From NCBI RefSeq assembly GCF_051903065.1, contig NZ_CP178438.1: DNA of 64,000 nucleotides; one strand, given 5' to 3'. Positions 12,856-52,932 of the stretch are shown in pieces. The translations under genes were made by a program, and so were the position numbers. A model generated the notes under the pieces. The model worked only from the letters and a program-made list of their open reading frames with translations. It made no database searches and was not told the DNA's origin. This DNA is from Escherichia coli. Lineage in GTDB: Bacteria; Pseudomonadota; Gammaproteobacteria; Enterobacterales; Enterobacteriaceae. Position 1 is the stretch's first letter. Each line of letters opens with the position of its first letter.

Positions 12856-12938
12856 GTTGGTACGAAATGTTGCACAATCAGCAAGTTAGCGTCACTGTAG
12901 TAAATAAAAGAACCTGCCTCACCAGCAGGTTTTTTTAT
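12856..12938 (+). ncRNA. orzO: Antitoxin small RNA (OrzO-like), about 80 nt
   Basis: Bounded by the consensus promoter and an intrinsic terminator; nt 12856-12873 (GTTGGTACGAAATGTTGC) can pair over 18 nt (one G-U) with the toxin 5' UTR encoded at 12689-12706. Confidence 0.7.
12912..12937 (+). terminator. Intrinsic terminator of the antitoxin sRNA
   Basis: Stem ACCTGC / GCAGGT, loop CTCACCA, followed by TTTTTTT. Confidence 0.75.
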
Positions 12939-13463: not shown

Positions 13464-13546
13464 GTTGGAACACGATGTTGCACAGGCTGTGGTGTTAGGC
13501 CTGAAAATAGTAAATAAAAGAACCTGCCTCACCAGCAGGTTTTTTT
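13464..13546 (+). ncRNA. orzP: Antitoxin small RNA (OrzP-like), about 80 nt
   Basis: Promoter plus terminator; 13464-13483 (GTTGGAACACGATGTTGCAC) is complementary to the UTR segment encoded at 13298-13317 with one mismatch. Confidence 0.7.
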
Positions 13547-28690: not shown

Positions 28691-28726
28691 TGCCGGATGC
28701 GGCGCGAGCGCCTTATCCGGCCTACA
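28691..28726. repeat. REP element
   Basis: TGCCGGATGCGGCGCGAGCGCCTTATCCGGCCTACA. Confidence 0.8.
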
Positions 28727-33979: not shown

Positions 33980-34152
33980 GATGAGCATTCAGATAGTGGT
34001 TCACGCGCACGGGTTGCGCACCGCCGGAGTAAGGATTTACTGAGGCTAGCGACGCCATCATAACGAGCAAAAAGTGCGATCGTCAAAGGAGAATCGTGTG
34101 GAAATGCTGCATTGCTGACATTTATGCCAGCAATGCAACGTCAAAGAACTTT

Positions 34153-47022: not shown

Positions 47023-49018
<1,996 letters not shown>

Positions 49019-50450: not shown

Positions 50451-51679
50451 CGAAAGATCTTTCGATTACTTTTTGCGGCGTGAAGTTTCCCAACCCGTTC
50501 TGCCTCTCTTCTTCGCCGGTAGGCAACTGCTATGAGATGTGTGCCAAAGCCTACGACACAGGTTGGGGCGGTGTGGTGTTTAAAACGATCGGCTTTTTTA
50601 TCGCCAACGAAGTCTCGCCGCGTTTTGATCATCTGGTGAAAGAAGATACCGGTTTTATCGGCTTCAAAAATATGGAGCAGATTGCCGAGCATCCGTTGGA
50701 AGAGAATCTGGCCGCCCTGCGTCGGCTGAAGGAAGATTACCCGGACAAAGTATTGATCGCTTCGATCATGGGGGAAAATGAGCAGCAATGGGAGGAGCTG
50801 GCGCGCCTGGTGCAAGAAGCTGGCGCGGATATGATCGAGTGTAACTTCTCCTGTCCGCAAATGACTTCTCATGCGATGGGTAGCGATGTCGGGCAAAGCC
50901 CGGAGCTGGTAGAAAAATATTGTCGGGCAGTGAAACGGGGTGCCACGCTGCCAATGCTGGCGAAGATGACGCCGAATATCGGTGATATGTGCGAAGTGGC
51001 GCTGGCGGCGAAGCGCGGCGGCGCAGATGGCATTGCGGCGATTAACACCGTTAAATCCATCACCAATATCGATCTTAATCAGAAAATCGGTATGCCGATC
51101 GTTAACGGAAAATCGAGTATTTCCGGATATTCCGGTAAAGCGGTAAAACCGATCGCCCTGCGCTTCATTCAGCAAATGCGCACCCATCCAGAACTGCGCG
51201 ATTTCCCAATCAGCGGTATCGGCGGCATTGAAACCTGGGAGGATGCGGCGGAGTTTTTATTGCTCGGCGCAGCAACGTTACAGGTCACCACCGGCATTAT
51301 GCAGTACGGCTATCGCATCGTAGAAGATATGGCGAGCGGGTTATCGCATTATCTCGCCGATCAGGGATTTGATTCGTTGCAGGAGATGGTAGGTCTGGCG
51401 AATAACAATATTGTCCCGGCGGAAGATTTAGACCGCAGTTATATTGTCTATCCCCGTATCAATCTTGATAAATGTGTTGGCTGTGGACGCTGTTATATTT
51501 CCTGTTACGACGGCGGTCACCAGGCGATGGAATGGAGCGAGAAAACCCGCACACCGCATTGTAATACCGAGAAATGTGTGGGTTGTCTGCTTTGTGGTCA
51601 CGTCTGCCCGGTGGGTTGTATTGATCTCGGAGAAGTGAAGTTTAAGAAGGGAGAGAAAGAACACCCGGTAACGTTGTAA
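50444..51679 (+). CDS. preA: NAD-dependent dihydropyrimidine dehydrogenase subunit PreA
   Basis: C-terminal 4Fe-4S cysteine clusters CVGCGRC and [12 protein letters not shown]; start [12 protein letters not shown]. Confidence 0.85.
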
Positions 51680-51689
51680 AACCAGAGAC

Positions 51690-51866
51690 GCATCCGGCAT
51701 TTGGCACCGATTGCCGGATGCGGCTTGAACGCCTTATCCGGCCTACAAAACCATACAAATCAGTATGTTGAGCTCATTGTAGGCCGGATAAAACGCGCCA
51801 GCGTTGCATCCGGCATTTGGCTCCTGTCGCCGGATGCGGCGTGAACGCCTTATCCGGCCTACAAAA
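51690..51866. repeat. Cluster of REP elements (BIME)
   Basis: Repeated GCCGGATGCGGC...GCCTTATCCGGCCTACA units in alternating orientation between preA and mglC. Confidence 0.8.
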
Positions 51867-51921
51867 CCACACAGATCATGATGTTATGTGCGTTTATGAC
51901 CGAATGCGGACCACAATCACA

Positions 51922-52932
51922 TCACTTCTTACGCGCGTATTTCAGTGAATCCAGCGCTACGGCGAAGATAATAATCGCCCCTTTGATGATGTACTGCCAG
52001 TATGGGTTTACGCCGATATACGTCAGGCCATAGTTGATGACGGTAAAAATAATTACCCCGGTCACCACGCCAATCACCGTCCCCACACCGCCGCTGAACG
52101 ATACACCGCCTACCACGCACGCCGCGATAGCATCCAGTTCATACATAAAGCCGAGGTTGTTGGTGGCAGAACCGATACGTCCGGCTTCTAACATCCCGCC
52201 GAAGGCATAGAACACACCAGACAACGCGTAGATCATCAGCAGGTTCAGGCCGACGTTGACACCAGATACTTTTGCCGCTTCCGGGTTACCGCCAATGGCA
52301 AAAATGTTCTTACCGAAGCGGGTTTTGTTCCACAACACCCAGACGAACGCCACCGCAATCAACGCGTAGAAGGTGATGTAAGAGAGACGGAAATTCCCCA
52401 GCGCGACAAAGCCCTGAGCAAAGGTAGAGAAGCCACTGTCAAAACCAGAAATTGGCGACGCCCCGACAAAGTCGTAATAGAGCGAGTTGATGCCATAGAC
52501 GATGATCATCGTGCCGAGCGTGGTAATGAACGGCGTCACGTTGAGATAAGCGATAATCAGACCGTTGATCAAACCGATCACCGCACCAATGGCACAGACA
52601 ATCAGAATAACCAGCGCAATCGGCATCGTCGCCATTTCCGGGAACACTTTGTTGGCGTTATCCATGGACTGCAATAACGTCGCCGCTACTACTGCCGCCA
52701 GCCCCACCTGGCGACCTGCAGAAAGGTCGGTCCCCTGGGTGACAATTAACCCTGCCACACCGAGCGCGATAATAATACGCACCGATGACTGGGTGAGAAT
52801 ATTACTTAAGTTCAACAGACTTAAAAATGTTGGGTCCTGGAAAATAATAATCGCCAGCAAAACTAAAAGAACGACGTAAATACCGCCCTCTTTCAGGTAA
52901 GTAAGAAAACTTTTCTTATTTAACGCACTCAT
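51922..52932 (-). CDS. mglC: Galactose/methyl-galactoside ABC transporter permease
   Basis: Tracked ORF, membrane protein; mglBAC operon order. Confidence 0.9.
   Translation of the reverse strand: MSALNKKSFLTYLKEGGIYVVLLVLLAIIIFQDPTFLSLLNLSNILTQSSVRIIIALGVAGLIVTQGTDLSAGRQVGLAAVVAATLLQSMDNANKVFPEMATMPIALVILIVCAIGAVIGLINGLIIAYLNVTPFITTLGTMIIVYGINSLYYDFVGASPISGFDSGFSTFAQGFVALGNFRLSYITFYALIAVAFVWVLWNKTRFGKNIFAIGGNPEAAKVSGVNVGLNLLMIYALSGVFYAFGGMLEAGRIGSATNNLGFMYELDAIAACVVGGVSFSGGVGTVIGVVTGVIIFTVINYGLTYIGVNPYWQYIIKGAIIIFAVALDSLKYARKK

What the first reader, a model, noticed from the sequence alone, without database searches (positions are those of the whole stretch)
51690..51866. BIME-type REP cluster fills the preA-mglC convergent intergenic region
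At least three REP units in alternating orientation occupy most of the 240 bp between two convergently transcribed operons; such clusters stabilise upstream mRNA and bind DNA gyrase or IHF. Noted mainly so that it is not mistaken for something else.
Basis: established knowledge. Interest (0 to 1): 0.15.

Follow-up and report, generated by a model that had tools for sequence, protein, structure and literature searches.

The report
REP/BIME repeat cluster between preA and mglC
The stretch is an ordinary, already catalogued cluster of E. coli's common short palindromic repeats (REPs) between two genes that face each other; it most likely forms hairpins that protect the ends of both messenger RNAs.

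Summary
Observation confirmed; interpretation correct; nothing new. The window is E. coli. The 242-bp spacer between convergent preA (stop 51677-51679) and mglC (stop 51922-51924) holds three complete REPs in alternating orientation:
- Y, 51712-51746
- Z2-type, 51779-51815
- Y, 51829-51862

A truncated Z2 head (51680-51699) and a decayed REP-like fragment (51898-51912) flank them. The Y units match the published consensus with 1 and 0 mismatches; shuffles give none.

The linkers are two 12-13-nt head-to-head "l" motifs and a 32-nt tail-to-tail "L"-like motif. The L-like motif carries a one-mismatch IHF core in the same register as K-12 BIME-1 elements. The cluster is therefore an "atypical" BIME (Y-L-Z2-l-Y), arranged as a 116-bp duplication.

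Rfam's naRNA4 model scores the Y-l-Z2 unit above threshold, but it also scores other K-12 BIMEs.

A published gyrase map lists this 149-bp element with zero cleavage sites, and not among BIME-1.

About 52% of 5,426 E. coli genomes carry this allele. About 44% of sampled chromosomes carry a 70-bp allele with no complete REP. Citrobacter has a bidirectional intrinsic terminator here instead.

Most likely roles: a 3'-hairpin barrier for both mRNAs, and a recombination-prone repeat.

The parts
51680..51699 (+). Truncated Z2-type REP. Only the head half survives (AACCAGAGACGCATCCGGCA), in the same orientation as the complete Z2 unit. It abuts the preA stop codon.
   Evidence: It aligns with the 3' part of the complete Z2 unit inside the 116-bp direct repeat. 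Rfam naRNA4 gives a partial hit at 51680-51743(-), 44.6 bits, with the Z2 hairpin truncated.
51689..51722 (+). Inter-REP hairpin: the remnant head pairs with the head of the first Y unit across the l linker. The stem is 11 bp and starts 9 nt after the preA stop codon.
   Evidence: RNA fold of 51686-51724 gives -24.9 kcal/mol, z -5.6; inverted repeat I4.
51700..51711 (.). Head-to-head linker 1, 'l' type (TTTGGCACCGAT).
   Evidence: It aligns to the linker of the Rfam naRNA4 (Y-l-Z2) consensus AAcGGUGCCGACU. It differs from K-12 at 5 positions.
51712..51746 (-). REP-A, Y class (GTAG foot on the - strand; reads ...CCTAC on +).
   Evidence: 1 mismatch to the published Y consensus; 33/34 identity to Y, against 27-28 identical positions to Z1/Z2. 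Hairpin -19.4 kcal/mol (+ strand) and -19.9 kcal/mol (- strand).
51747..51778 (.). Tail-to-tail linker, 32 nt, 'L'-like (AAAACCATACAAATCAGTATGTTGAGCTCATT). It carries the IHF-like core AATCAGTATGTTG at 51758-51770.
   Evidence: The core has 1 mismatch to WATCAANNNNTTR. It starts 11 nt after the Y unit's CCTAC, as in the K-12 BIME-1/RIP linkers of cueO-gcd, yaaX-yaaA and mutT-yacG (11-12 nt).
51779..51815 (+). REP-B, Z2 class (GTAG foot on the + strand).
   Evidence: By my base-by-base count it is 32/36 identical, without gaps, to K-12 Z2 GCCTGATGCGACGCTGGCGCGTCTTATCAGGCCTAC; the scripted alignment gave 31/36 because it used a string shifted by one base. The 4 differences form two compensatory pairs, T-A to G-C and G-C to A-T. 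Hairpin -21.2 kcal/mol (+ strand) and -20.5 kcal/mol (- strand).
51816..51828 (.). Head-to-head linker 2, 'l' type (TTTGGCTCCTGTC).
   Evidence: Rfam alignment; direct repeat D1.
51829..51862 (-). REP-C, Y class (GTAG foot on the - strand).
   Evidence: 0 mismatches to the published consensus. Hairpin -21.6 kcal/mol (+ strand) and -21.1 kcal/mol (- strand).
51863..51897 (.). Second, degenerate copy of the L-like linker (AAAACCACACAGATCATGATGTTATG...). Its IHF core has 2 mismatches.
   Evidence: It is the right part of direct repeat D1. No core with 1 mismatch or fewer is found there.
51898..51912 (.). Possible decayed REP head fragment (GACCGAATGCGGACC).
   Evidence: Read from the sequence; 9 of 13 positions match GCCGGATGCGGCG. 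It reads CCGGATGCGA in strain TUM13754. Weak evidence.
51782..51859 (-). Y-l-Z2 two-hairpin unit that matches Rfam RF02564 (naRNA4). It lies on the mglC-sense strand.
   Evidence: 85.8 bits against a gathering score of 59.5, model positions 1-77 of 77.
51682..51885 (+). Two-copy direct repeat with 116-bp spacing (51682-51769 and 51798-51885, 86% identical). This is the duplicated BIME unit: Z2 head - l - Y - L.
   Evidence: the repeat finder family D1. A one-unit allele, exactly 116 bp shorter, exists in E. coli strain 134.

Best explanation
The feature is an 'atypical' bacterial interspersed mosaic element (BIME) of E. coli. Its layout is: [Z2 remnant]-l-Y-L-Z2-l-Y-[degenerate L]-[decayed REP]. 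It amounts to a 116-bp duplication of one Z2/Y unit, and it fills the spacer between the convergent preTA and mglBAC operons.

Shown here: the REP identities and classes, the alternating orientation, the linker types, the strong hairpin potential on both strands, the high copy number of the family in E. coli, and the variation in unit number between strains.

Inferred mechanism:
- Neither strand has an intrinsic terminator, so both convergent transcripts run into the cluster.
- Their REP hairpins (about -20 kcal/mol each) then act as barriers to 3'-to-5' exonucleases and fix stable 3' ends. This is the classical REP-stabiliser role. The BIME may also attenuate read-through.
- In Escherichia the BIME occupies the place where Citrobacter keeps a bidirectional intrinsic terminator.
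- As DNA, the cluster is a recombination-prone substrate, through slippage between repeats or the REP-associated transposase TnpA-REP. That explains the alleles with 0, 1 and 2 units and the variant allele.

IHF binding to the L-like linker is possible but unproven. Strong gyrase cleavage is not seen in published data.
For: - Identity: Y units with 1 and 0 mismatches to the published consensus, none in shuffles. The middle unit matches K-12 Z2 at 32 of 36 positions by my base-by-base count (31/36 in the scripted alignment, which used a string shifted by one base), and the four differences form two compensatory pairs.
- Linkers: the l linkers align to the Y-l-Z2 consensus. The L-like linker has its IHF core in the same register as three K-12 BIME-1 linkers.
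- BIME classes are as defined in PMC3333891.
- Structure: whole-spacer RNA folds give z -7.0 on the + strand and -9.0 on the - strand. Single REP hairpins are -19 to -22 kcal/mol.
- No terminator: the scan finds no more terminator-like sites than shuffles do, and no promoter.
- Copy number: a median of 35 matching places per E. coli genome.
- Alleles: spacers of 242, 126, 258 and 70 bp.
- Outgroups: five Citrobacter species have a ~55-bp spacer with an A6-stem-T6 hairpin and no REP. E. albertii and two divergent Escherichia lineages have BIMEs with other unit numbers.
- Prior listing: the element is listed as a 149-bp interval in Sutormin et al. 2019, table DS3.
Against: - No transcript 3'-end or RNA half-life data for preTA or mglBAC could be retrieved, so the RNA-level role rests on family knowledge.
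- About 44% of sampled E. coli chromosomes lack every complete REP here, so the cluster is dispensable. The short allele does keep a -29.9 kcal/mol hairpin.
- The published gyrase map shows 0 cleavage sites.
- The IHF core has a mismatch at a conserved position. One-mismatch cores occur about once per kb in this window: 67 found against 54 expected.
Confidence: 0.85

Rival explanations
1. The cluster is essentially selfish or neutral repeat DNA. On this view it is spread and resized by the REP-associated transposase or by slippage, and it has no locus-specific function for preTA or mglBAC.
For: - Presence/absence polymorphism: about 52% of genomes have the two-unit allele, and about 44% of sampled chromosomes have an allele with no complete REP.
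- Several further unit-number variants exist.
- Differences from K-12 are patchy and concentrated in one linker.
- TnpA-REP cleaves and recombines BIMEs in vitro (PMC3333891).
Against: - All alleles, the short one included, keep a strong hairpin directly after preA.
- The two differences in the Z2 stem are compensatory.
- The ancestral terminator is gone in Escherichia, so something must define the 3' ends.
Confidence: 0.3
2. The cluster is an IHF-binding element (RIP/RIB, BIME-1-like). IHF would bend the DNA at the L-like linker between the first Y unit and the Z2 unit.
For: - The core AATCAGTATGTTG (51758-51770) has 1 mismatch to WATCAANNNNTTR.
- It lies 11 nt from the Y unit's CCTAC, the same register as in K-12 BIME-1 linkers.
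- The A-rich start AAAA is shared.
Against: - The mismatch is in the conserved ATCAA block.
- One-mismatch cores are common by chance: 67 in 64 kb against 53.6 expected.
- The element is not in the BIME-1 list of Sutormin's table DS3.
- The partner REP is Z2, not Z1.
- No IHF ChIP table was available.
Confidence: 0.25
3. The cluster encodes a naRNA4-like nucleoid-associated small RNA. A Y-l-Z2 two-hairpin RNA, processed from the mglBAC 3' UTR, would work with HU in DNA condensation.
For: - The Rfam RF02564 hit at 51782-51859(-) scores 85.8 bits against a gathering score of 59.5, over the full model length.
- Qian et al. 2015 report that most REP elements are transcribed and that two-hairpin RNAs act with HU (PMC4550694).
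Against: - The model recognises any Y-l-Z2 unit. It also hits mutT-yacG (twice) and nlpE-yaeF in K-12 at 77.8-92.8 bits.
- naRNA4 proper comes from REP325, between yjdM and yjdN.
- No expression or HU-binding data exist for this locus.
- The unit is absent from about 44% of sampled strains.
Confidence: 0.1
4. The cluster is a bidirectional Rho-independent terminator for the two convergent operons.
For: - Strong GC-rich hairpins on both strands.
- The same position holds a true bidirectional terminator in Citrobacter.
Against: - No hairpin is followed by a U-run on either strand. The scan gives one weak site, no more than shuffles, and its T-run lies inside the Z2 stem.
- From general knowledge, REPs are at best weak terminators.
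Confidence: 0.05

Closest known systems
Atypical BIME of E. coli (Bachellier/Gilson classification, as summarised in PMC3333891), for example the K-12 mutT-yacG element Y-l-Z2-L-Y-l-Z2
   Same: - Alternating Y and Z2 REPs.
- 12-13-nt 'l' head-to-head linkers.
- A ~32-nt tail-to-tail linker with an IHF-type core 11 nt from the Y foot.
- Tandem unit duplication.
- Location at the 3' ends of genes.

   Different: - Here the IHF core has one mismatch; the mutT-yacG core is perfect.
- The Z2 unit carries a Y-like CCGG outer stem through a compensatory change.
- The left-most Z2 is truncated at the preA stop codon.
BIME-2 (Y + Z2; gyrase-cleaved, for example sucB-sucC, eco-mqo, nrdA-nrdB)
   Same: - Y and Z2 units with an l linker.
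- Variable tandem copy number between strains.
- Listed under 'BIMEs2' in Sutormin et al., table DS3.
   Different: - The tail-to-tail linker is the long L-like type, not the short S type.
- There are 0 gyrase cleavage sites in Topo-Seq under ciprofloxacin, rifampicin + ciprofloxacin, microcin B17 and oxolinic acid, against 2-11 with ciprofloxacin at the cited BIME-2 loci.
BIME-1 / RIP / RIB (Y-L-Z1; IHF-binding)
   Same: A Y unit followed by a ~32-nt linker with an IHF-like core in the same register. The span from Y through the linker to the Z unit is ~102 bp, against the typical 97 bp.
   Different: - The partner REP is the long Z2 form, not the short Z1.
- The element is duplicated rather than single.
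- It is not in the published BIME-1 list.
- The core is imperfect.
naRNA4 / REP325 (Rfam RF02564)
   Same: The same Y-l-Z2 two-hairpin unit, scoring above the family's gathering score.
   Different: - Different locus: preA-mglC, not yjdM-yjdN.
- One complete unit rather than six.
- No evidence of a discrete RNA or of HU binding.
- The model hits BIMEs generically.

Membership tests
REP / palindromic unit (PU) of E. coli | A ~35-nt imperfect palindrome that matches the REP consensus | tested here: met
   51829-51862 has 0 mismatches and 51713-51746 has 1 mismatch to GCCGGATGCGGCGTGAACGCCTTATCCGGCCTAC (consensus quoted in PMC12306157). Shuffles give 0.
REP / palindromic unit (PU) of E. coli | Conserved GTAG (CTAC) tetranucleotide at the foot of the hairpin, and a mismatch or bulge in the stem | tested here: met
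   CTAC at 51743-51746 and 51859-51862; GTAG at 51779-51782. The folds show the internal unpaired positions. The features are as defined in PMC3333891.
REP / palindromic unit (PU) of E. coli | Extragenic location and high copy number in the genome | tested here: met
   The cluster lies wholly between the two stop codons.
BIME (generic) | Two or more REPs in alternating orientation, Y alternating with a Z type, separated by conserved linker motifs | tested here: met
   The units are Y(-) / Z2(+) / Y(-), plus a Z2 remnant. The linkers are l, L-like and l.
BIME-1 (RIP/RIB) | Y paired with the short Z1 REP across the L linker, present as a single copy | tested here: not met
   The partner matches Z2 at 31/36 positions in the scripted alignment (32/36 by my corrected count) and Z1 at 25/36. 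The unit is duplicated. It is absent from the 78-element BIME-1 list of Sutormin's table DS3.
BIME-1 (RIP/RIB) | An IHF binding site in the L linker | tested here: inconclusive
   The core has 1 mismatch and sits in the canonical register. Such cores occur by chance about once per kb, and no binding data were available.
BIME-2 | Y and Z2 REPs with s/l/r head-to-head motifs | tested here: met
   The Rfam Y-l-Z2 alignment covers the full model length at 85.8 bits.
BIME-2 | A short 'S' tail-to-tail linker | tested here: not met
   The tail-to-tail linker is 32 nt and L-like. The definition is from PMC3333891.
BIME-2 | In vivo cleavage by DNA gyrase | tested here: not met
   This rests on published data, not on a test run here. 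The interval 2240991-2241140 in table DS3 of PMC6379681 has 0 sites in all four conditions. The coordinate mapping was verified by the 3,798-bp spacing to the neighbouring REP and by the 149-bp length. Caveat: read mapping in repeats can hide sites.
Atypical BIME | A chimera of BIME-1 and BIME-2 motifs (y, z2, L, l) in more than one copy | tested here: met
   The layout is Y-L-Z2-l-Y, with a 116-bp duplication. The definition is from PMC3333891.
naRNA4 (Rfam RF02564) | A score at or above the family's gathering threshold | tested here: met
   85.8 bits against 59.5. However, the model also hits other BIMEs.
naRNA4 (Rfam RF02564) | A discrete transcript that binds HU and condenses DNA, originating from REP325 | not testable with these tools
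   The locus is preA-mglC, not yjdM-yjdN. No expression data were available.
Rho-independent terminator | A GC-rich hairpin immediately followed by a U-run | tested here: not met
   The scan finds 1 weak site against 0.7 expected, and its T-run lies inside the Z2 stem. By contrast, Citrobacter has the A6/T6-flanked hairpin.

The most novel reading that the evidence does not exclude
In the Escherichia lineage a BIME replaced the bidirectional intrinsic terminator that Citrobacter still has between preA and mglC. Today's near 50:50 polymorphism (two-unit BIME against a 70-bp REP-poor allele) may make measurable lineage-specific differences. These could affect 3'-end formation, mRNA stability or read-through of preTA and mglBAC. 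They could also include translational damping of PreA by the 11-bp hairpin that starts 9 nt after its stop codon, which is inside the <16-nt rule of Liang, Rudd and Deutscher as quoted in PMC12306157.
Probability: 0.2. Interest if true: 0.3.

Novelty: already known. Interest (0 to 1): 0.08.

Why it matters
It matters mainly as a negative result. The strong palindromes, the 116-bp duplication, the small REP-derived ORFs and the above-threshold Rfam sRNA hit here are all explained by one well-known repeat family. None of them should be annotated as a new gene, terminator or regulatory RNA.

Two modest side points follow:
- The locus is a clean natural example of a BIME standing where a sister genus keeps a bidirectional terminator.
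- The roughly 50:50 allele split in E. coli offers ready-made material for testing what REP clusters do to flanking gene expression.

Tried and rejected
1. RefSeq NC_000913 as held here carries no REP repeat_region features. K-12's own REP number could not be read, so I used table DS3 of Sutormin et al. instead.
2. Tandem Repeats Finder reports nothing. The second copy of the 116-bp unit is incomplete and only 86% identical. The repeat finder does show it.
3. Supplements that might have given locus-specific data were not held or had no entry:
   - Qian 2015, REP transcription lists.
   - Prieto 2012, IHF ChIP.
   - Dar & Sorek 2018, 3' ends.
   - RepRanger.
   - Liang et al. 2015 is not in the library.
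4. A literature search for preA/mglC together with REP found nothing relevant.
5. Sigma-70 promoter in the spacer: none. An independent sRNA gene is therefore unlikely.
6. The ORFs of 47 aa (51701-51844) and 43 aa (51817-51948) that run through the REPs were rejected as coding. They start with TTG, consist of repeat sequence, and are missing from the short allele that about 44% of sampled chromosomes carry.
7. The terminator scan failed to flag the obvious Citrobacter terminator, probably because its A-run and T-run can pair. Direct reading and folding show it. Because of this weakness, I also checked the E. coli sequence by eye for U-runs and found none after any hairpin.
8. The other weak Rfam hits (mir-944, mir-2796 and others, E 0.2-1) are palindrome artefacts.

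Full report
**What the region is.** The window is Escherichia coli. A 381-bp query around the finding is 100% identical to strain ECNB21-M121 and 96.6% identical to K-12. RefSeq annotation of those records names the flanking genes preA and mglC. preA encodes the NAD-dependent dihydropyrimidine dehydrogenase subunit; it is on the + strand and its stop is at 51677-51679. mglC encodes the galactose ABC transporter permease; it is on the - strand and its stop is at 51922-51924. The genes converge, and the spacer 51680-51921 is 242 bp.

**Checking the observation.** The published E. coli REP consensus is GCCGGATGCGGCGTGAACGCCTTATCCGGCCTAC (quoted in PMC12306157).
- It occurs with 0 mismatches at 51829-51862 and with 1 mismatch at 51713-51746. 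With up to 3 mismatches there are only two other hits in the 64 kb, and none in 100 shuffles.
- The looser pattern GCCGGAT-N14-26-ATCCGGC adds a third unit at 51783-51814. Expectation from shuffles is 0.02.
- The outer two units end in CCTAC on the + strand. The middle one begins with GTAGG, so orientation alternates.

**Anatomy.** From left to right:
- 51680-51699: a truncated REP head (AACCAGAGACGCATCCGGCA). It corresponds to the 3' part of the middle unit.
- 51700-51711: a 12-nt head-to-head linker.
- 51712-51746: REP-A, class Y.
- 51747-51778: a 32-nt tail-to-tail linker.
- 51779-51815: REP-B.
- 51816-51828: a 13-nt head-to-head linker.
- 51829-51862: REP-C, class Y.
- 51863-51897: a degenerate second copy of the long linker.
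- 51898-51912: a possible decayed REP fragment.

The block remnant-l-Y-L is repeated directly with 116-bp spacing (51682-51769 and 51798-51885, 86% identical).

**Class of REP-B.** REP-B is of the long Z2 class. It matches K-12 Z2 (GCCTGATGCGACGCTGGCGCGTCTTATCAGGCCTAC) at 32 of 36 positions without gaps by my base-by-base count. The scripted alignment used a string shifted by one base and gave 31/36 for Z2, 27/36 for Y and 25/36 for the short Z1. The four differences are two compensatory pairs in the hairpin: T-A to G-C and G-C to A-T (Rfam alignment). This keeps the structure and gives the outer stem a Y-like CCGG.

**Linkers and BIME class.** PMC3333891 defines the classes as follows:
- BIME-1 is Y + Z1 across a long L linker that often carries an IHF site.
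- BIME-2 is Y + Z2 with a short S linker and s/l/r flanks.
- Atypical BIMEs are multi-copy chimeras of these motifs.

The short linkers here align to the 'l' linker of the Y-l-Z2 consensus. I compared the long linker with L motifs that I fetched from K-12 elements listed as BIME-1 (cueO-gcd, yaaX-yaaA, mutT-yacG).
- Read from the Y foot, all begin with AAAA and place an IHF-type core 11-12 nt in.
- Ours reads AAAACCATACA|AATCAGTATGTTG|AGCTCATT, with one mismatch (A6 to G) to WATCAANNNNTTR.

The element is therefore Y-L-Z2-l-Y, an atypical BIME. Its closest relative among the loci I examined is mutT-yacG (Y-l-Z2-L-Y-l-Z2).

The IHF core is weak evidence by itself. Cores with one mismatch or fewer occur 67 times in the window, against 53.6 +/- 8.7 in shuffles.

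**Structure.**
- Each REP folds as a hairpin of -19 to -22 kcal/mol on either strand.
- The whole spacer folds far better than shuffles: + strand -104.7 kcal/mol, z -7.0; - strand -119.7 kcal/mol, z -9.0.
- An extra 11-bp hairpin forms between the remnant head and the head of REP-A (51689-51722, -24.9 kcal/mol). It starts 9 nt after the preA stop. That is within the <16-nt distance at which REPs were reported to lower translation of the upstream gene (Liang et al. 2015, as summarised in PMC12306157). This is a lead, not a result.
- The scans find no sigma-70 promoter, and no more terminator-like sites than chance gives. None of the hairpins is followed by a U-run.

**The Rfam hit.** RF02564 (naRNA4) matches 51782-51859 on the - strand at 85.8 bits (gathering score 59.5) over the full model. 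naRNA4 is the Y-l-Z2 unit of REP325, between yjdM and yjdN (PMC4550694). The model also hits other K-12 BIMEs: mutT-yacG twice and nlpE-yaeF, at 77.8-92.8 bits. The hit therefore identifies the repeat unit, not a specific sRNA gene.

**Published locus-specific data.** Table DS3 of Sutormin et al. 2019 (PMC6379681) lists K-12 REP/BIME intervals with their gyrase cleavage sites.
- The row 'BIMEs2 2240991-2241140, 149 bp' is this element. It is 3,798 bp from the row 2237193-2237226.
- That is exactly the spacing between the cdd-sanA REP and REP-A in MG1655, in W3110 and in the window. 149 bp is the span from REP-A to REP-C.
- The row has 0 cleavage sites with ciprofloxacin, rifampicin + ciprofloxacin, microcin B17 and oxolinic acid.
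- The element is not among the 78 BIME-1 intervals.

So the element is already catalogued, and the generic statement 'binds gyrase or IHF' has no locus-specific support.

**Variation within E. coli.** Of 5,426 complete genomes, 2,847 have a match covering at least 80% of the query. In an evenly spaced sample of 57 chromosomes:
- 30 carry the 242-bp two-unit allele.
- 1 carries a 126-bp one-unit allele, exactly one 116-bp unit shorter (strain SC516; the same allele was read in strain 134).
- 1 carries a 258-bp variant, Y-L-Z2-L-Z2-l-minipalindrome (APEC17).
- 25 carry a 70-bp allele with no complete REP. It consists of the Z2 remnant, an l linker and a 23-nt perfect palindrome, TGCCGGATGCGACGCATCCGGCA (strain 405). 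This allele still folds at -29.9 kcal/mol.

The window differs from K-12 at 9 spacer positions. Five of them lie in the first l linker, where the window carries the version found in the short allele. This looks like patchwise exchange. [quoted passage not shown] It is attributed to recombination, possibly through the REP-associated transposase (PMC3333891).

**Outgroups.** I scanned one genome per species for a conserved MglC peptide-coding pattern and analysed the downstream sequence.
- Five Citrobacter species keep preA and mglC convergent, with a ~55-bp spacer. It contains a textbook bidirectional intrinsic terminator, A6-GCCGGTGCAG-loop-CTGCACCGGC-T6 (-26.2 and -22.2 kcal/mol), and no REP.
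- E. albertii has Z2 remnant-L-Z2-l-Y.
- Two divergent genomes titled E. coli have two and four REPs.

The BIME is therefore a feature of the genus Escherichia at this site. It stands where a terminator sits in the sister genus. Salmonella did not appear in the capped result list, so the time of gain is not resolved.

**Mechanism.**
- Shown: identity, classes, hairpin potential, absence of an intrinsic terminator, unit-number polymorphism, and absence of published gyrase cleavage.
- Inferred from family knowledge (PMC3333891 introduction and its references 2-9): both convergent transcripts enter the cluster. The REP hairpins block 3'-to-5' exonucleases and set stable 3' ends. The BIME may attenuate read-through. 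The DNA is a substrate for slippage or for TnpA-REP-mediated gain and loss of units.
- Rivals: a purely neutral repeat, an IHF site, a naRNA-like RNA, and an intrinsic terminator. I rank them 0.3, 0.25, 0.1 and 0.05. The first three are not mutually exclusive with the main reading.

**Verdict.** This is a known, catalogued atypical BIME. The only mildly interesting points are the terminator-to-BIME replacement relative to Citrobacter and the balanced presence/absence polymorphism.

Noticed in passing
window 12863-12936 and 13471-13546 (+): Two Rfam OrzO-P antitoxin RNA hits (88.8 and 99.9 bits; gathering score 60). This looks like a tandem zor-orz type I toxin-antitoxin pair. From memory, that pair is described in O157:H7 and is absent from K-12.
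   Followed up: no
window 33984-34064 (-): Rfam Peptidase-S11 RNA motif, 72.8 bits (gathering score 34.8). It is a cis-regulatory candidate upstream of a D-Ala-D-Ala carboxypeptidase-type gene.
   Followed up: no
window 28692-28725 and 47915-47948 (+): Two isolated Y-type REPs, with 2 and 3 mismatches to the consensus. The second lies in the cdd-sanA spacer and served as the anchor for mapping this locus onto the published Topo-Seq table.
   Followed up: partly
window 51700-51711 compared with K-12 (L001 5522-5534): Five of the nine spacer differences between this strain and K-12 lie in one 12-nt linker. The window's version (TTTGGCACCGAT) is the one carried by the 70-bp allele and by the right end of the APEC17 allele. 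This looks like a small gene-conversion patch.
   Followed up: partly
L015 6960-6993 (Citrobacter werkmanii); also L024, L050, L060, L072: In Citrobacter the same convergent preA-mglC pair is separated by ~55 bp that carry a classic bidirectional intrinsic terminator and no REP. The consensus terminator scan misses it, probably because its A-run and T-run can pair and extend the stem.
   Followed up: yes
L003 381-450 (E. coli strain 405, short allele): The REP-poor allele contains a 23-nt perfect palindrome, TGCCGGATGCGACGCATCCGGCA, made of two REP head halves. It has no GTAG foot, so it is not a canonical REP. How it arose is unexplained; a deletion between inverted heads is one possibility.
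   Followed up: partly
L006 3041-3298 (E. coli APEC17): A fourth allele, 258 bp, has two consecutive Z2 units in the same orientation separated by an L-like linker (Y-L-Z2-L-Z2-l-minipalindrome). This breaks the strict alternation of orientation.
   Followed up: partly
window 51701-51844 and 51817-51948 (+): Two TTG-start ORFs of 47 and 43 aa run through the REPs and encode near-identical peptides (MAP.AGCG.NALSGLQNHT...). They are by-products of the repeat, not genes.
   Followed up: partly
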